In this document: piece by piece, positions 33,001 through 45,000 of the stretch
How the letters are laid out: each line of letters opens with the position of its first letter
How positions within the stretch are numbered: the first letter of the stretch is position 1
Virus record (IMG/VR): IMGVR_UViG_2660238269_000009
Length of the DNA stretch: 60,442 nt
Source: a virus
Lineage: Duplodnaviria; Heunggongvirae; Uroviricota; Caudoviricetes
Reading direction: 5' to 3' (one strand)
Program-made: the position numbers

Positions 33001-36000
33001 GCATTCGGTTTATGCTCACCCCAGCATCCCCGACGAAGATAACATCATCCAGCCCATGGAAAGAAAAAGAGCAACCAGCATTAGTGAAAATGAAATGCCG
33101 ATGATTACACAGAGGATCTTCGCCAGCATTATGAGTTTGTCTGACATGTTTAATCCTCCCTTCACGATTTCAACGCAATGACCAGTTTTGCCAGCCCATA
33201 CAGCATCGGAGACACAGCGATATACCGACCGCCACCCACTTAATAGCAAAAGCCAGTGCTCTGCTGATGTCATCAGTTACTGGCGCTTTCAGTTCAAGGC
33301 CGTTTTTCATAGTCAACCTCAACAGAATTCGTTTATACTTTTCCATGTTCTCCCTTGCCTTATCCAAGGTCAGAAACACAAAACCCCGCTTGCTGCCAAC
33401 AAACGGGGTTTTTACTTTTATTCACTTAGGTTTTGCCAGTTCGCAGGATTTCGTGTTATCCGTCCGCGTTGGCCAACGTCATTTTTCAGCAAAATATTCT
33501 GCTTATCTGTCGATACCCCAGCACGCCAGCGCGCTCTCCTGGTCACGACGGGATACCTGACCATAACAGTTATTTGAGCGGATACGGCAGTCTCTGCCAC
33601 CGTCCTTAATCCACCAGCGAAGCGCCTCACACGCTCCCCTGCGATCTCCTGCATTAATTCGTTTATAAAACGTCGACGTGAAACACTTACCCGGGCCAAT
33701 GTTGTAAGGACAGAATGACGCAATACCCGCTTTCTGGGGTTCAGTCAGTGGCACTCTGATGTTTTTCTCCACCCATGCCAGCGCCTTATCCCGTTCAATG
33801 GCGTTAACCTGGTCGCATTTTTCCTTCGACAGCTTCATGCCAGGGACGACAGGCTTACCATCCACCCGGGTGGCACCACGGCAGATGGTCCAGATACCCG
33901 CACCATCACGGTATGCCGTGGTGTGGTTACCTTCTTTTTCGTCAAGAAACTGGTCGAGGATTTCAGGCGCAGAAGCACCTGCAGCAATCAGCGCCAGAAC
34001 GACCGCTGATAAACCATAGCGGAATTTCCTGCTCATCAGCTTACTCTCCCCGCGCCGCCTTACGCCGGTCCTCTCTGATTTTGAAATACAGGTTCGTCAG
34101 ATATGTCAGCAGCCCAAACAGCAGACTCCCCAGCACGCCTATTGCCGCCCACTGAGACGGGGAAACCCTGTCCAGCAACTGCAGGAACCAGTAGCCCGTT
34201 CCCACCGCTGACGTGGTGTATGACACACCTGTTGTGATTTTTTCCATCTGGTACATACCCCGTCTCCCGCAAGCCGGAAGCTCACAACAATATAAAGACC
34301 ACCGGCACACACCGATGGTCCCTTGCGCATGCTTACATCATCATGTCGCTGTCAGGTGTGGGGTCACCGCCATCTGAAGCACTCCCCTCACCCGCGATAC
34401 CTTCCGGCTCCGGAACTGCCGGTGCGCCCAGCAGTTCATCCAGAATGGCATCCACTTCTGCATCAAGACGCGCCTCAAGGTTCTGGCGGAGTTTCTGTTT
34501 CAGTGCGCTCAGGACTTCTTCAGAGCGCAGGACTTCCTTCACTGCCTCTGCAGTGACCAGGGATGTAATTTCTGACATGGGATTTTCTCGTTGAAAGGGG
34601 TTATTAAGGAGTAATGGGCTCTTCGGGTTTGCTTCCGGCTGACTGACTGGCGCTGATTTTCTCTGCGGCCCTTTTATCAATCTGCCTGCGCCAGCAATCG
34701 CGCACTGCCCTGTACCCACCCGAAAGAAGATACAGCACACAGACCACCGTACAGAAGTACAGCATTAACTGGTTCAGAAATGTCATGGTTTCTCACCGTG
34801 ATAGTTGACATGATTTACTTATTTTTGTAGAAAAACACCGCAGACTTCGGTGTCATCATGGTCGTTTTACCAGCCGCCAGCATTCATGTAGTGGACAAAG
34901 TTCATCCCTTTCCTTCATTGCTGGCGGCCTTTTTTATCATGCCGCGGCATCCGCGTTGTTCACTTCCACCTTCACACTGTCAATCAGCAACGTATATGTC
35001 GCCGCCTTTGATATGTCTGTCAGTTGCAGTTTGTCCGCCGCCCCTGATGCCGGAGATTTCACCAGTGTGAACGGTGTACCCCGTTTCTCATCCAGTACCG
35101 GCGTCACCTGAATGCTGTTGTTTCCGGCAAACTCAAAAGCCAGTGTGTGCCATCCGTTATCAAAGACCCCGAACGTATCCAGCTTCGCATTCTGCTTCTT
35201 GTGGTACATCGCGTTCAGGTTCGTCGCATCCGTCTGCAGGAAGAAGGACATCAGCATGTCGTTGCCTTCCTCTGACAGCGTCACTCCCTCCGGCAGGGAC
35301 GACAACTGCCAGTAAATACCCAGGGCAAACTGATTCGGCACCAGTGCGCCCGGCACCTTAAACCGCACGCTCACACGTCCGCCTTTCTTCAGCAACTCTG
35401 CCCCCTGCCCGGCGGCATCATGCTCCAGAAACCAGATGTGGCTTTCCGGTTTGTTCAGTTGCAGGGCCTTACCACCGGTGGCACCCTCATCACTGACCAC
35501 AGCCTCAGCGATGTTTTTATTAACACTGTCTCCGCTCGCCGGTTTGTGATAATAGCGCCAGCCCTGTGATGCCAGGTCTTCACCGGACGCCAGCAGACTC
35601 ATCAGGGTTCGGTTACTGACCGGGGCTTCCGGCTCTCTCTCCGGGCCTTCACCGGAAGGTCCGGTGGGCTTCACCGTATCAGGCTGTTTTCCGGTAATGA
35701 ATTCAGCGGTTCTCCCGGCGTGCAACAGAATCGCCGTTGCCAGACGGTCGGAAATAATCCCACGGCGAGCCCATGAACTGAAATGGCTGGCCCTGTCTGC
35801 TGATGTCCAGGTCTTCTGGTCATTACGCCACTTTGAACCGTAATAACCGACGGTTTCCAGGTCCGGGTCTTCTGCCGGGTTATTGGTCTGCACATTCGCA
35901 CCATTCTCATCCGTCATTAACGGTACAAAGAAAATGTTCTGCGACTCCTTACCCTTATACCCTCCGTATACTGATGCATACCCTTCCGCATGACGCTGCT

Positions 36001-42000: not shown

Positions 42001-45000
42001 CCCTTCGCCTCATACCCGGCATCTTTCGGACGATACGGCCCCTGATAATGTTCCGCGAACAGAATGCGCTCTGTGGCGGGGAAATACGCCCTCAGGCTTT
42101 CCTTGTTGCACCCGTTCCAGCGTCCGGACGGCTTTGCCCAGATAATATGGTTCAGCACACTGAAGCGTTCACGCATCATGATTTCGATATCAGATGCCAG
42201 GCGATGGCCACAGAACAGGTAAAGACTTCCGGCAGGTTTCAGCACCCGCCAGAACTGCGCAAGACACTGGTCCAGCCACTTCAGGTAATCATCGTCGCCC
42301 TTCCACTGGTTATCCCAGCCCTCAGGCTTCACTTTAAAGTACGGCGGATCCGTGACTATCAGGTCAACAGAATTTTCGGGTAACGACCGGATAAATTCCA
42401 GGCAGTCGGCGTTGATTAACTCACAACTGGATATTTTTACAGTGTTAAGCATGGATCATTAAGCCTGTCTCTGATAGGCTCATTCTTCTTTTGCGCAAAG
42501 CAGTGGGCCTGAGGTTTGCTTGTGATCCAGACGCATGAGCAGATGGCTGGTGAGTGCCCCTAACACCCACCAGCCGCCCATTTACCACAAATAAAAAAGC
42601 CTTCATGACTGAAGGCGTCTGTAACAACCGAACTGATAGTCTGCCAGACCCGCCATAACAAGCTGGGTCAGTATTAACTGGCAGCGTTCGCGTGAAAGGT
42701 AAGTATTCTGCGCAATCTCCCCGACTGTCGCCGGTTCGGTGACGCTTAATTCATTAAACACCACTCTGGCGGTTTCGGTCATATCCTGCTGTTTCAGCAT
42801 GTCTTTTTCCCTTTTCAGGTTAACGTGACATACCAATAACTCTTGTCGAAAAAGCCAGCAAGCTGAAAGACCCGTATTCGCAACCACCAGCGCGTTTAAC
42901 GCCCTGTGTCGTTTTTCGGGCATAAAAAAACCCGCCAGTGGCGGGGATCTTTTGATAAAAACGACAAAGGCACCATTAAGGTGCCTTTTACACAGGGGCA
43001 GCAGGCTTGTCATCACCTTATTGCTACTCCTGGCTTCCAGTTCGGAAGTCTCACAAGTCCCATCAGGGTACAGCGACAGTATCAGTCAACACACTATGTG
43101 TGTCAATATAAATTCATATCGAATTCGATAATCGTTTTCGATTATCGATACAGATAAGCCATCCCTATCCCGTGCAATACCGCCCGTTTAATATTCTCAA
43201 ACTCATCTTCCGCAATCATAGGAACAATATAATTTCGCCCCTCCCAGGTTCTAGTTTTTATGCGATCCAGTCGGCTCAATGAAACCGTCATCAACATGTC
43301 ACATTTTACCCAACAAGTAATATGCTCATTACCAGGGATGGGGTTTTCTGATAACTCATGATGGCAATCTCTGCGAGGAATCGGTTCAGTAGTGCTTATT
43401 GGTACCACTGTTACCAATTGATTGTTGTGTCTGTTTCTGGACACGACTACCACTGGCCTGACCTTGACTATTTCCGGAACAACCATTCCCCGAAAATCAC
43501 ACATTAAAACAGAACGAACAGACGGCTGATACTTTAACACCATAAATCTCTTTGCCTGATAATGACGACTTGTGAACTCCACTACAAACAAAATGATTCT
43601 GCTGAACAGGCAGTTTCGCACTGTACATTATAACCTGTTAAGCCAACAAAAAAACCCGCTCGGCGGCGGGGTTTGCTTACTTTGCCATCGCGTACAAAAT
43701 CGGCAAAATATCAGATTTACATGAAATATATGCTTTTTAATCCAGTTTTGCAATATTTTGCTGTGAAAATGTGGTCTTTTGTTTTGAACGTGTTTTCGTT
43801 AAAAGCAATAAAGCTTGGCTATCAAGCTGTAGAAAAATGTGCTTCATTGCAACCCAGCGTTCAGTAAATGTCTCAGACCAGTTTTTTGATGTCACTCCCA
43901 CCAGTGATGCCAGATCCCGGTATTCATAACCTTCCCCACCAAAAAGCTCAGCTTTTACCGCTTGCGCCGCCAGCCAGATCAACTTCTTCAGACGTTCCAG
44001 CGTTTTCCCAGCTATTTTTCTGGTACCGGATTGAGTATTAAATTCATTCCACGCCCACTGCGTTATCGCAATCTGATACTCCCAGCAAATGTTTCCGCCG
44101 TAACACCACAACAACCACGCCTTCTGATGCGCTTCCAGTTCCAGAACTGCACGTCGCCATGATGATGTCGAAAACTCAACCGGACTGACCAGAGCAATTG
44201 ACGTCCCTTTCGCCAGTGATTGTTTACCCGGGATCGGTGGGTTATCCCGCGTGATCATTTTTCCGGTTACCTCATCGCGGTAACGAATTTTTTTGCGTCT
44301 GTAACGCCCTGTATCGAACAGTGCATTTTCCTGCCAGGCTTCCAGTTGGCCTTTTATCGACACACTGAGATCCGCAGTGGCAATCATGAGTTGCTCACGA
44401 ACAAACTGTAAATACTGGTTATTCATGCACACCCACCTCTGTAATTCTTATCTCCAGCCGTCCACCAGATACTGGCTGGCCACGTACAATATTGATTTCA
44501 TCAAACTGCTCATCGTCCATTAACAACCCTGCATGCGTCAGCGCATCCAGCGGCGCTTTCAGGATATTATCCAGGTCACGGCGGCGCTTATCCGGTGGCT
44601 CTGCAATCACCTTTATCGCCAGCCTTCCGGACAGGCTTAATTTCAGCCGCTGCTGGCGAACAATAAGCGCCACTGCCCGGCGATAGCGCTTTCCCTCCTC
44701 AGATATAAAATATGTGCTGCCACGACGTCGCCAGTAAGTATTCACCGTCGGTGGATAAGGCAAAACAAACTCTATACGCATCAGTAACCTCTTTTACCCA
44801 AGCACGCCGGTTGCAAAGGCGTGATCAAGAAAACGAAAAATTAACTCAACCTGAGAGCCGTACTTTTTCTCAAACTCCAGCGGGTCTGCATGAAGTTCGT
44901 TGTGATGTTCCCGGCACAACGGTAGCGTGAAAATATCGTGGGCCTTTGTCCCCATTCCCCCCTGACCATGACCAATCAGGTGATGCGGATCGTCAGCAGG

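What the first reader, a model, noticed from the sequence alone, without database searches (positions are those of the whole stretch)
34937..43680. Stx-phage-like late-region architecture (Q-like, tR', three tRNAs, cargo, nanS, lysis) with stxAB absent and a different cargo
The order is a Q-like gene, a short leader with a strong terminator, tRNAs with CAU, UCG and UCU anticodons, a cargo segment, a nanS-like esterase and then a phage-21-type lysis cassette. This mirrors the organisation of Shiga-toxin-converting phages. No Shiga toxin genes are present. The cargo position instead holds two small proteins with strong ribosome-binding sites, the HTH/ImmA operon, a TerB-like gene with a coupled membrane peptide and an AT-rich orphan gene. 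Genes in this slot are expected to be expressed on prophage induction.
Basis: partly seen in the sequence, partly recalled or inferred. Interest (0 to 1): 0.62.

Follow-up and report, generated by a model that had tools for sequence, protein, structure and literature searches.

The report
Stx2-like prophage carrying defence cargo
This is the late-gene region of an E. coli lambdoid prophage that is about 98% identical upstream of the cargo slot to a real Shiga-toxin 2a phage, but where stx2AB would sit it carries stacked accessory cassettes, chiefly a known anti-phage toxin-antitoxin system (RosmerTA); this makes it an ordinary though neatly documented case of cargo swapping.

Summary
On the minus strand the order is Q, a promoter-like site and short leader with a terminator, a PemK/MazF-like gene, a 65-aa gene, a DNA methyltransferase, tRNAs CAU/UCG/UCU, cargo, a nanS-p-type esterase, DUF1378, DUF826, a P21-type holin and a lysozyme. 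There is no stx.

Window 41056-45111 is 98.4% identical to the Stx2a prophage of E. coli 02E060. Homology stops 45 bp after the third tRNA, where the stx2 promoter region and stx2A follow in the Stx2a prophage. It resumes 42 bp after stx2B.

The replacing 3.3 kb consists of stacked cassettes separated by diverged copies of one terminator element:
- two small unknown proteins;
- a RosmerTA toxin-antitoxin defence pair, rmrT plus an HTH-M78 peptidase gene rmrA;
- TerB with DUF3927.

An STnc100 sRNA and an opposite-strand iraM follow, outside the replaced block.

Both closest complete genomes and the other homologous loci examined have it intact. The rmrTA cassette has its own strong promoter with conserved GGTTGACA repeats, so expression in the lysogen is likely, not only on induction.

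All components belong to known kinds, and the same locus is present, unremarked, in two RefSeq genomes. Interest is modest.

The parts
43737..44432 (-). Late-gene antiterminator Q (PF06323 type; RefSeq start gives 229 aa).
   Evidence: Pfam E 6.3e-90. The protein has the same accession, WP_001064919.1, in the 2013C-3181 relative and the Stx2a prophage of 02E060.
43646..43753 (-). Q-linked late promoter-like site (TTGCAA-17-TATATT, 43753-43725), a leader of about 70 nt, and a tR'-type terminator (stem 43670-43655 plus T7).
   Evidence: This 95-nt Q-proximal block is conserved with this Q type in 1153 E. coli genomes. Promoter activity is inferred, not shown.
43142..43543 (-). PemK/MazF-like (YifN-like) gene with no adjacent antitoxin. 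It is a low-GC insert directly after tR'.
   Evidence: Pfam PemK E 6e-14 and phrog_15698. The segment 42946-43645 is present in only 24 of 5426 complete genomes. It is also present in true Stx2a prophages.
42931..42988 (-). Second hairpin plus terminator pair. This is where homology with other Stx2 and stx-negative relatives begins, so it is probably the tR' of the ancestral backbone.
   Evidence: homology with L002 and L005 ends at 42943-42945.
42603..42800 (-). Conserved 65-aa protein of unknown function, with weak similarity to a winged HTH.
   Evidence: phrog_331 E 1e-37 and TrmB E 0.002, below cut-off. It is present in Stx2 phages.
41394..42452 (-). N6/N4 DNA methyltransferase.
   Evidence: Pfam PF01555 E 5.8e-44 and PADLOC MTase_II E 7e-164. 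It is shared with Stx2 phages.
41102..41353 (-). Three tRNA genes, equivalent to ileZ (CAU), argN (UCG) and argO (UCU).
   Evidence: ARAGORN; Rfam tRNA scores of 72.5, 53.6 and 70.1 bits. They are 95.6-98.4% identical to the Stx2 phage copies.
41045..41089 (-). Terminator element, copy 1, after argO. These are the last bases shared with Stx2 phages before the stx2 promoter position.
   Evidence: The same sequence is annotated 'terminator' in 933W and VT2-Sakai.
40788..41012 (-). 74-aa protein of unknown function (GTG start, AGGAGG ribosome-binding site).
   Evidence: phrog_2571; no Pfam, PADLOC or PDB match. It is present with the 69-aa gene in about 700 complete E. coli genomes.
40526..40735 (-). 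69-aa protein of unknown function (AAGGAG ribosome-binding site).
   Evidence: phrog_4280 E 6e-41; DUF7336 only E 0.005. A C-run length difference gives 76 aa in strain 2013C-3181.
40440..40495 (-). Terminator element, copy 2. It marks the left junction of the rmrTA cassette.
40380..40431 (-). rmrTA promoter (TTGACA-16-TAAAAT, 40416-40389) with TTGACA-core repeats (GGTTGACA over the -35, GTTGACA just after the -10), plus an inverted TTGTCAA upstream. These are a putative RmrA operator.
   Evidence: The promoter matches 11 of 12 positions. The repeats are conserved upstream of rmrT in a Salmonella prophage, a metagenomic phage and phage Tritos. The operator role is inferred.
39749..40354 (-). 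rmrT, the RosmerTA toxin (201 aa, soluble).
38599..39749 (-). rmrA, the RosmerTA antitoxin (XRE HTH plus M78 peptidase, HELGH motif present). In this window it is split into a 111-aa HTH ORF (39414-39749) and a 263-aa peptidase ORF (38599-39390).
   Evidence: The intact 383-aa version from relative L001 matches PADLOC RmrA at E 2e-103 over its full length, with Pfam HTH_3 and Peptidase_M78. Its start overlaps the rmrT stop (TAATG).
39457..39462 (-). Frameshift site: an A6 run in the mRNA sense, where relatives have A7.
   Evidence: both RefSeq relatives have one extra base here. The A6 allele is shared only with GCA_009296305.1. The split fragments are on 1 contig, while intact forms are on more than 1000 contigs.
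38455..38557 (-). Two terminators after rmrA. The second is terminator element copy 3 and marks the right junction of the rmrTA cassette.
37919..38350 (-). TerB-domain protein (143 aa).
   Evidence: Pfam TerB E 1.4e-16; phrog_632 'tellurite resistance' E 2e-69.
37758..37922 (-). DUF3927 membrane peptide (54 aa), translationally coupled to TerB.
   Evidence: Pfam E 3e-16; phrog_1470 'TciB-like'; GTGA overlap.
37480..37692 (-). STnc100-family small RNA with its own terminator (37510-37491).
   Evidence: Rfam RF02076, 139.4 bits against a gathering score of 47, E 1e-30. Part of it (37537-37725) is about 80% identical to the sequence just after stx2B in the Stx2a prophage. The literature places a copy 75 nt downstream of stx2.
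37121..37456 (+). iraM (anti-adapter protein), on the opposite strand, 33.5% GC.
   Evidence: NCBIfam NF007393, 161 bits against a cut-off of 121. It is absent from the 02E060 Stx2a prophage but present in some Stx2 phages.
34937..36919 (-). nanS-p-type sialate O-acetylesterase (DUF1737, SASA and DUF6645 domains).
   Evidence: Pfam. It is 85.6% identical in nucleotide sequence to the Stx2a prophage copy.
34333..34786 (-). DUF1378 (34604-34786) and DUF826 (34333-34578) small genes.
   Evidence: Pfam E 5e-38 and E 3e-41. The same order is seen in the Stx2a_WGPS2 phage.
33503..34256 (-). Lysis genes: P21-type holin S (34041-34256) and a lysozyme with a hydrophobic N-terminal stretch typical of SAR endolysins (33503-34036).
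   Evidence: Pfam PF04971 E 9e-33 and PF00959 E 1e-25. They are about 96% identical to the Stx2a prophage copies. The SAR assignment rests on reading the sequence and was not tested with an HMM.

Best explanation
The region is the promoter-proximal part of the late operon of an E. coli lambdoid prophage. The prophage is a very close relative of Stx2a-converting phages.

Q (43737-44432) is expected to load onto RNA polymerase at the promoter just downstream of its gene. The modified polymerase would then read through the leader terminator and about eight further intrinsic terminators, reaching the esterase, lysis and head/tail genes. The three tRNAs supply decoders for AUA, CGA/CGG and AGA/AGG.

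The interval that holds stx2AB in the sister phage holds a stack of 'moron' cassettes here. They appear to have been inserted by recombination at a repeated terminator-containing junction element.
- Two small proteins of unknown function.
- A RosmerTA toxin-antitoxin defence module.
- TerB with DUF3927.

An STnc100 sRNA and an antisense iraM follow, outside the replaced block.

The RosmerTA module most likely works as in described members of the family. RmrA (HTH plus M78 Zn-peptidase) neutralises RmrT and probably autorepresses the operon through the TTGACA-core repeats that bracket its own sigma-70 promoter. Infection by another phage releases RmrT, which stops growth and aborts the infection. 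The module therefore probably serves the lysogen, and it would also be over-transcribed after induction.

In this window rmrA is split by a one-base loss in an A-run. This is either a rare real mutation, which would weaken or alter the antitoxin, or a homopolymer sequencing error.

Shown: gene content, order, family assignments, allelic relation to stx2AB, cassette boundaries, promoter and repeat conservation, the frameshift.
Inferred: Q read-through, autoregulation, the defence phenotype, the toxin's activity.
For: Architecture and allelism:
- ORFs, tRNAs and Rfam hits and family scans.
- Collinearity with Stx2 phages.
- 98.4% identity over 4057 bp with the 02E060 Stx2a prophage. Breakpoints lie 45 bp after argO and 42 bp after stx2B.
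- No stx in the window.

Cassette structure:
- A nested series of relatives. STEC1590 has tRNA-TerB-DUF3927-iraM. O26 11368 adds the two small genes. The window adds rmrTA at 38503-40439.
- Three diverged copies of one terminator element sit at the junctions. The single STEC1590 copy equals the left half of copy 1 plus the right half of copy 3.
- Terminator-like sites are enriched, 24 against 10.9 +/- 3.6.
- Cargo GC is low, 38-41% and 33.5%, against 50-58% in the flanks.

RosmerTA:
- RmrA E 2e-103 and RmrT E 2e-17, adjacent with overlapping stop and start.
- The same pair, always with an intact 381-383 aa RmrA, occurs in other lambdoid phages: between Q and holin (L010, L011) and in the nin region (Salmonella L008, phage Tritos).
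- In every case it is preceded by a terminator and has the same promoter with TTGACA-core repeats.

Family biology from the literature:
- RosmerTA was described as a defence system in which an antitoxin with a Zn-peptidase is paired with a toxin of unknown function, and a rmrA deletion could not be transformed (Millman et al. preprint).
- A phage-encoded RosmerTA system defends E. coli, and HTH cleavage by the peptidase has been proposed as the regulatory step (Ernits et al. 2023).
- stx and the lysis genes are Q-activated (PMC10462455).
Against: - No expression or phenotype data exist for this locus.
- The sigma-70 scan as a whole is not enriched over shuffles.
- The leader fold is not exceptional (z -1.28).
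- rmrA is frameshifted in this window, so the system may be non-functional here.
- RmrT's match to the RmrT HMMs is moderate (61 bits). Its fold gives only weak, non-significant hits, and no acidic catalytic residues are conserved, so the toxic activity is unknown.
- An IS421 copy (46327-47514) and a second Q-family gene lie upstream in the early-right operon. Normal delivery of Q on induction is therefore not assured.
Confidence: 0.8

Rival explanations
1. The cargo is an induction-coupled payload like Shiga toxin. On this reading it consists of effector or fitness proteins made mainly from the Q-dependent late transcript and released at lysis.
For: The cargo occupies exactly the stx2AB position in the late operon. 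All cargo genes except iraM are co-oriented with the late transcript. Q-dependent expression of this slot is established for stx.
Against: The cassettes are separated by terminators, and rmrTA has its own strong, conserved promoter. The largest unit is an intracellular defence toxin-antitoxin pair. None of the products matched any toxin or effector family in Pfam, PADLOC, PHROGs or NCBIfam. The same rmrTA cassette also sits in the early nin region of other phages.
Confidence: 0.12
2. In this genome the RosmerTA module is a decaying remnant. On this reading the frameshift is real and inactivates the antitoxin, and the toxin is silenced or tolerated, so the cassette has no current function.
For: There is a one-base loss in the A-run. 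The split allele is seen in only one other assembly, against more than 1000 contigs with intact rmrA. The peptidase fragment has only a GTG start with a poor ribosome-binding site.
Against: rmrT is intact and identical to the common allele. Loss of rmrA was reported as not tolerated, so an intact toxin with a dead antitoxin should be counter-selected. Differences between this window and its closest relatives are concentrated in homopolymers (39456, 38432, 40531), which is typical of sequencing error. The HTH fragment could still repress the promoter.
Confidence: 0.2
3. rmrTA acts mainly as an addiction or stabilisation module that keeps the prophage, or this cassette, in the genome, rather than as an anti-phage defence.
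For: It has toxin-antitoxin architecture and a tightly coupled operon. In a related E. coli prophage toxin-antitoxin module, toxicity appears when clpP is repressed (Rousset et al. preprint). This fits post-segregational-type control.
Against: Two members of the family were shown experimentally to protect against phages. The cassette moves between different positions of different phages. That is what is expected of a selected accessory function rather than of stabilisation of one element.
Confidence: 0.1

Closest known systems
Stx2a-converting prophage of E. coli 02E060 (NZ_AP027197.1), and Stx2 phages generally (933W, VT2-Sakai, Stx2a_WGPS2)
   Same: The order is the same: DUF968, RusA, Q, MazF-like, 65 aa, methyltransferase, ileZ-argN-argO, then the slot, STnc100, nanS-p, holin and lysozyme. 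Q to argO is 98.4% identical in nucleotide sequence. Q, RusA and the MazF-like protein carry the same RefSeq accessions in the 2013C-3181 relative and the 02E060 Stx2a prophage, as does the holin.
   Different: stx2AB (1326 bp) is replaced by 3330 bp carrying two small ORFs, rmrTA and TerB-DUF3927. iraM is added before nanS-p. nanS-p is only 85.6% identical. No Shiga toxin is present.
stx-negative lambdoid prophages of E. coli O26:H11 11368 and STEC1590
   Same: They have the same backbone, and the same TerB-DUF3927 cassette (plus the two small ORFs in O26) after the tRNAs. STEC1590 is 98% identical to the window across 34043-38505 and 41056-42943.
   Different: They lack the 1.9-kb rmrTA cassette. 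They also carry different Q modules without the MazF-like gene.
RosmerTA defence systems (Millman et al. 2022; Gordonia phage Kita RmrTA, Ernits et al. 2023)
   Same: A two-gene toxin-antitoxin operon with an HTH plus M78/ImmA peptidase antitoxin and a small toxin of unknown fold. Both proteins hit the PADLOC RmrA and RmrT models. The system is phage-borne.
   Different: This RmrT is soluble with no transmembrane segment, so it is unlikely to depolarise the membrane as the Kita toxin does. rmrA is frameshifted in this window. No experimental data exist for this member.
ImmR/ImmA of ICEBs1 and CapH/CapP of CBASS (named from my own knowledge; ImmA is also discussed)
   Same: An XRE-type HTH repressor is coupled to an M78 metallopeptidase that can cleave it. 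There are weak PADLOC hits to capP (E 1e-20) and capH (E 4e-9).
   Different: There the two functions are on separate proteins and control an integrase or a CBASS operon. Here they are fused in the intact allele and paired with a toxin.
Lambdoid 'morons' (promoter-gene-terminator inserts; concept from Juhala et al. 2000, my own knowledge)
   Same: Low-GC inserts between conserved phage genes, each followed by a terminator. rmrTA has its own promoter. The inserts vary in presence among close relatives.
   Different: Several are stacked in one slot and share a repeated junction/terminator element.

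Membership tests
Stx-converting lambdoid phage, late region | Q antiterminator gene followed by a late promoter and a short terminated leader | tested here: met
   PF06323 E 6e-90. A promoter-like site and a hairpin plus T7 terminator lie 67 nt after the Q stop codon. Function was not tested.
Stx-converting lambdoid phage, late region | ileZ-argN-argO-type tRNA cluster upstream of the toxin slot | tested here: met
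   ARAGORN and Rfam. The cluster is 95.6-98.4% identical to Stx2 phage copies.
Stx-converting lambdoid phage, late region | stxA and stxB genes | tested here: not met
   tblastn with Stx2A and Stx2B against the whole window gives a best E of 0.07. The slot is filled by other genes.
Stx-converting lambdoid phage, late region | nanS-p esterase, then a P21-type holin and a lysozyme, downstream of the slot | tested here: met
   DUF1737, SASA and DUF6645 domains; PF04971; PF00959. The literature reports nanS-p downstream of stx2a in all the Stx2a phages studied.
Stx-converting lambdoid phage, late region | Collinear nucleotide homology with a bona fide Stx phage on both sides of the slot | tested here: met
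   98.4% identity upstream; 80-96% identity downstream.
Stx-converting lambdoid phage, late region | Q-dependent transcription of the slot after induction | not testable with these tools
   This needs RNA-seq or reporter assays with and without mitomycin C.
RosmerTA (PADLOC/DefenseFinder definition) | RmrA: N-terminal XRE HTH plus M78 Zn-peptidase with HExxH, matching the RmrA models over their full length | tested here: met
   The intact allele from relative L001 gives E 2e-103, covering 10-377 of 383 residues. Pfam HTH_3 and Peptidase_M78 are present. The HELGH motif is present in the window's ORF.
RosmerTA (PADLOC/DefenseFinder definition) | RmrA encoded as one intact ORF | tested here: not met
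   The window has A6 where relatives have A7, giving ORFs of 111 aa and 263 aa. Whether this is a real mutation or a sequencing error cannot be decided here.
RosmerTA (PADLOC/DefenseFinder definition) | Adjacent, co-oriented RmrT-family gene | tested here: met
   PDLC03933 E 2.1e-17, covering 6-193 of 201 residues. The rmrT stop overlaps the rmrA start. The pairing is conserved in four other loci.
RosmerTA (PADLOC/DefenseFinder definition) | Toxin toxicity, neutralisation by RmrA, and protection against phages | not testable with these tools
   These have been shown only for other members of the family.
Type II MazEF/PemIK toxin-antitoxin | PemK/MazF-fold toxin | tested here: met
   PF02452 E 6e-14, 52.6 bits against a cut-off of 23.1.
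Type II MazEF/PemIK toxin-antitoxin | Adjacent cognate antitoxin gene | tested here: not met
   Upstream lie only the leader and terminator. The downstream ORF overlaps two terminators. The next real gene, of 65 aa, also occurs in phages that lack the MazF-like gene.
STnc100 sRNA (Rfam RF02076) | Covariance-model score above the gathering threshold | tested here: met
   139.4 bits against a gathering score of 47, matching the full model length.
IraM anti-adapter | NCBIfam NF007393 above its curated cut-off | tested here: met
   161.1 bits against a cut-off of 121.
PD-(D/E)xK nuclease fold (for RmrT) | Significant structural match and a conserved D...(D/E)xK catalytic motif | tested here: inconclusive

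The most novel reading that the evidence does not exclude
The stx slot may be a general cassette-exchange site, bounded and subdivided by a portable terminator/junction element of about 50 nt. A single recombination at this element would then interconvert a Stx2a phage and a defence-carrying, toxin-free phage. A second possibility is that the RosmerTA cassette placed there is under dual control: autorepressed in the lysogen through the TTGACA-core operators, and flooded by Q-dependent read-through after induction. In that case the toxin-antitoxin balance, and perhaps the split A6 form of RmrA acting like a two-protein ImmR/ImmA pair, could influence lysis timing or exclusion of competing phages during the prophage's own lytic cycle.
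Probability: 0.15. Interest if true: 0.5.

Novelty: new member of a known kind. Interest (0 to 1): 0.3.

Why it matters
The window gives a clean natural example of one phage backbone carrying either a human-disease toxin or an anti-phage defence system at the same nucleotide position. The junction sequences that allow the swap are visible. This is useful for three purposes:
- understanding how Stx phages gain and lose stx;
- interpreting 'stx-negative' relatives in surveillance genomes;
- recognising the Q-to-lysis interval of lambdoid phages as a place to look for defence cargo.

It does not reveal a new kind of system. Every component belongs to a described family or to known families of unknown function, and the same locus already sits in RefSeq genomes under generic product names (hypothetical or helix-turn-helix proteins).

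Tried and rejected
RmrT fold:
- Foldseek against PDB and BFVD gave no hit better than E 0.06.
- The afdb50 library was unavailable.
- A profile search against PDB sequences found nothing.

Small proteins and the MazF-like protein:
- None of them has a relative among PDB sequences.
- None of them has a PADLOC hit.

Leader RNA:
- The Rfam E-value scan gave only sub-threshold isrJ and isrK hits, 17-21 bits against gathering scores of 37-50.
- The fold z-score is -1.28. No sRNA family is claimed for the leader.

Other points:
- I looked for an antitoxin partner for the MazF-like gene and found none.
- I first assumed the window came from GCA_009296305.1, because the 263-aa fragment is identical. 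Alignment shows that assembly is a different background: 98.0% identity, different upstream gene, divergent STnc100.
- I checked whether the tRNAs match the cargo's codon use. rmrA and the MazF-like gene are rich in the cognate rare codons (7-10 per 100 codons), but rmrT, the two small ORFs and TerB are not, so no general claim is made.
- The three opposite-strand ORFs near the second Q gene have no Pfam or PADLOC hits.

Full report
**What is there**

The window is almost a whole E. coli lambdoid prophage, from tail genes at the left to the integrase at the right. It is 99-100% identical to prophages in E. coli 2013C-3181 and N51.

The finding lies on the minus strand. Reading in the direction of transcription, from high to low coordinates, the features are:
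- DUF968 (44794-45843)
- RusA (44419-44781)
- Q (43737-44432, PF06323, E 6e-90)
- a promoter-like TTGCAA-17-TATATT site at 43753-43725
- a leader of about 70 nt ending in a GC hairpin plus T7 (43670-43655)
- a PemK/MazF-like gene (43142-43543)
- a second hairpin and terminator pair (42988-42931)
- a conserved 65-aa gene (42603-42800)
- an N6/N4 DNA methyltransferase (41394-42452)
- tRNAs with CAU, UCG and UCU anticodons (41353-41102)
- the cargo, described below
- a DUF1737/SASA/DUF6645 esterase (34937-36919)
- DUF1378 and DUF826
- a P21-type holin (34041-34256)
- a lysozyme (33503-34036)

Terminator-like sites are enriched in the region (24 found against 10.9 +/- 3.6 in shuffles). Promoter-like sites as a class are not. 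No Shiga toxin gene exists anywhere in the window.

**Relation to Stx phages**

Megablast against phage records returns mostly Stx1- and Stx2-converting phages, matching the Q-to-tRNA block and the esterase-to-lysis block but never the cargo. The Stx2a_WGPS2 phage has the same order, with stx2AB between argO and the esterase.

The decisive comparison came from following the MazF-like protein. The identical protein sits in genuine Stx2a prophages. In E. coli 02E060 the stretch from DUF968 to argO is 98.4% identical to window 41056-45111 over 4057 bp. Q, RusA, the MazF-like protein and the holin carry the same RefSeq accessions in the 2013C-3181 relative and in 02E060. The methyltransferase accession matches that in N51.

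Homology stops at window 41055, 45 bp after argO. In the Stx2a prophage the stx2 promoter region and stx2A follow at that point. Homology resumes at 37725, which corresponds to 42 bp after stx2B. So 1326 bp carrying stx2AB in the toxin phage corresponds to 3330 bp (37726-41055) here.

Downstream identities are about 80% (STnc100 region), 85.6% (esterase) and about 96% (holin and lysozyme). The segment containing iraM (36906-37536) has no counterpart in that phage.

**The cargo is a stack of cassettes**

Relatives form a nested series:
- STEC1590 has tRNAs, TerB, DUF3927, iraM and the esterase.
- O26:H11 11368 has tRNAs, the 74-aa and 69-aa genes, TerB, DUF3927 and the esterase.
- The window adds a further 1.9 kb (38503-40439) between the 69-aa gene and TerB.

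The two small genes occur in about 700 of 5426 complete E. coli genomes. The 1.9-kb insert occurs in only two.

Three diverged copies of one terminator-containing element of about 50 nt lie after argO, after the 69-aa gene and after the insert. The single copy in STEC1590 equals the left half of the first window copy joined to the right half of the third. This is what insertion by recombination at this element would produce.

The inserts have low GC: 38-41% for the 1.9-kb insert and 33.5% at iraM, against 50-58% in the flanks. This is the classical 'moron' pattern (concept from my own knowledge).

**The 1.9-kb insert is a RosmerTA module**

The 201-aa protein matches PADLOC RmrT (PDLC03933, E 2.1e-17, near full length). 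The HTH plus M78 peptidase protein, taken intact from relative L001, matches RmrA at E 2e-103 over its whole length. Its Pfam domains are HTH_3 and Peptidase_M78, and it carries an HELGH motif. The rmrT stop overlaps the rmrA start in a TAATG sequence.

RosmerTA was described by Millman et al. as a defence system in which an antitoxin with a Zn-peptidase is paired with a toxin of unknown function. A rmrA deletion could not be transformed. Ernits et al. confirmed defence for a phage-borne member, and proposed HTH cleavage by the peptidase as the regulatory step.

Homologous rmrT-rmrA pairs, always with an intact RmrA of 381-383 aa, occur in other lambdoid phages:
- between Q and a P21-type holin in a metagenomic phage (L010 and L011);
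- in the nin region of a Salmonella prophage (L008);
- in the nin region of Escherichia phage Tritos (L013).

In all four contexts the pair is preceded by a terminator. It is driven by the same promoter layout: TTGACA, a 16-17 nt spacer, then TAAAAT or GAAATA. A TTGACA-core motif (GGTTGACA, or GTTGACA at the window's downstream copy) sits over the -35 and again just after the -10. In the window this promoter, at 40416-40389, matches the consensus at 11 of 12 positions.

I infer that these repeats are the operator for the RmrA HTH, and that the cassette is expressed and autoregulated in the lysogen. That is inference, not observation.

**The frameshift**

The window has A6 at 39457-39462, and both RefSeq relatives have A7. 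The result is a 111-aa HTH ORF and a 263-aa peptidase ORF with a weak GTG start.

The same A6 allele is present in one other assembly, GCA_009296305.1. That assembly has a different upstream neighbour and a divergent STnc100 region. The split fragments are recorded on one contig. Intact forms are recorded on more than 1000 contigs, and the exact rmrT sequence on 920.

Other indel differences between the window and its closest relatives are also in homopolymers (38432 and 40531). I cannot decide between a rare real variant and a sequencing error. An intact toxin with a dead antitoxin would be hard to maintain. This favours either an error or a still-functional split form.

**The toxin**

RmrT has no Pfam family and few close relatives: 15 by word-indexed search, all from Enterobacterales where named. 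A profile search finds 145 cluster representatives of about 200 aa.

The residues conserved across the family are Y29, N75, T93, R110, N117, H140 and P155. This is not a D...(D/E)xK motif. I therefore leave the activity open. At low confidence, my guess is a nucleic-acid-directed activity on a degenerate nuclease-like fold. Unlike the Kita phage toxin, this protein has no hydrophobic segment.

**Other cargo**

- TerB (143 aa) and the coupled DUF3927 peptide match phage families labelled tellurite resistance and TciB-like. Their function is unknown.
- The sRNA at 37480-37692 is a strong STnc100 match. The literature places an STnc100 copy 75 nt downstream of stx2 in Stx2 phages and relates it to PasD sRNAs. 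Its presence here fits the backbone.
- The 'AT-rich orphan' is iraM, on the opposite strand. Some Stx2 phages carry it too.
- The two small proteins remain unknown.

**How it most likely works**

From the lambda and Stx paradigm (plus my own knowledge), Q-modified polymerase starting just downstream of Q must read through the leader terminator and the later terminators (42945, 42616, 41089, 40493, 38557, 38507, 37510) to reach the lysis and morphogenesis genes.

However, the terminators between cassettes and the dedicated rmrTA promoter indicate that the defence module mainly serves the lysogen.

Two caveats apply. An IS421 copy (46327-47514) and a second Q-family gene (50286-50807) lie in the early-right operon upstream of Q. 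Whether this prophage still induces normally is therefore unknown.

**Verdict**

This is a toxin-free sister of a Stx2a phage whose toxin slot holds stacked accessory cassettes, the largest being a known defence toxin-antitoxin system.

Stx-like prophages without stx are widely recognised (my own knowledge). Defence genes in prophage accessory slots, RosmerTA, STnc100 and IraM are all described. The same locus is already in two RefSeq genomes, annotated only as hypothetical and helix-turn-helix proteins.

The new points are:
- the exact allelic correspondence with stx2AB;
- the repeated junction element;
- the conserved promoter with its TTGACA-core repeats;
- the frameshift.

I rate this as a new member of a known kind, of modest interest.

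Noticed in passing
window 43142-43543 (-): A PemK/MazF-like (YifN-like) gene sits immediately after the Q leader terminator, with no antitoxin gene beside it. The segment is in only 24 of 5426 complete E. coli genomes, but it also occurs in genuine Stx2a prophages. Its position suggests expression only after Q antitermination. It is rich in codons read by the phage tRNAs (10.5 per 100 codons).
   Followed up: partly
window 48139-50807: A second antiterminator gene of a different Q family (PF06530, 50286-50807, minus strand) is followed by three opposite-strand ORFs of 363, 142 and 197 aa with no Pfam or PADLOC hits. A similar layout, a Q-like gene plus opposite-strand unknown genes, precedes the stx2 region in phage Stx2a_WGPS2. 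The prophage therefore carries two Q modules in tandem.
   Followed up: partly
window 46327-47514 (+): An IS421 (IS4-family) transposase lies between the hokD/sok locus and the DUF968-RusA-Q block. This is inside the early-right operon that should deliver Q, so it may affect induction.
   Followed up: no
window 47637-47962 (-) and 55855-55906 (+): A hokD gene with its sok antisense RNA (Rfam 117 bits) and a DicF sRNA (76 bits) next to dicB. These are typical Qin/Rac-like prophage features.
   Followed up: no
window 15492-16646 (-): A 384-aa OmpC-type porin gene is embedded among the tail genes of the prophage. It is annotated ompC in the 2013C-3181 relative.
   Followed up: no
window 37500-37750 compared with L014 (GCA_009296305.1): The STnc100 region is a hotspot of divergence. 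42 of the 60 differing alignment columns in a 3-kb alignment fall within these 250 nt, while the flanking rmrTA and TerB genes are nearly identical. This suggests sRNA allele exchange.
   Followed up: partly
window 40531 and 38432: Further homopolymer length differences from the closest relatives. A C-run at 40531 changes the C-terminus of the small protein (69 aa here, 76 aa in 2013C-3181). A C-run at 38432 lies upstream of TerB. With the rmrA A-run, the indel differences seen against the two closest relatives are confined to homopolymers.
   Followed up: yes
window 42819-43016 (-): Gene callers annotate a 65-aa or 137-aa ORF here in relatives. It overlaps two terminator hairpins and a promoter-like site (43106-43078), so it is probably spurious. 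The segment looks like a second promoter, leader and terminator module left over from a different Q cassette.
   Followed up: partly
window 1-13185 compared with L006: The left end of the window differs from 2013C-3181 in IS66-family content. There is a 2.5-kb offset, and the first 6 kb of the window do not align. The tail-fibre region is therefore rearranged between otherwise near-identical prophages.
   Followed up: no
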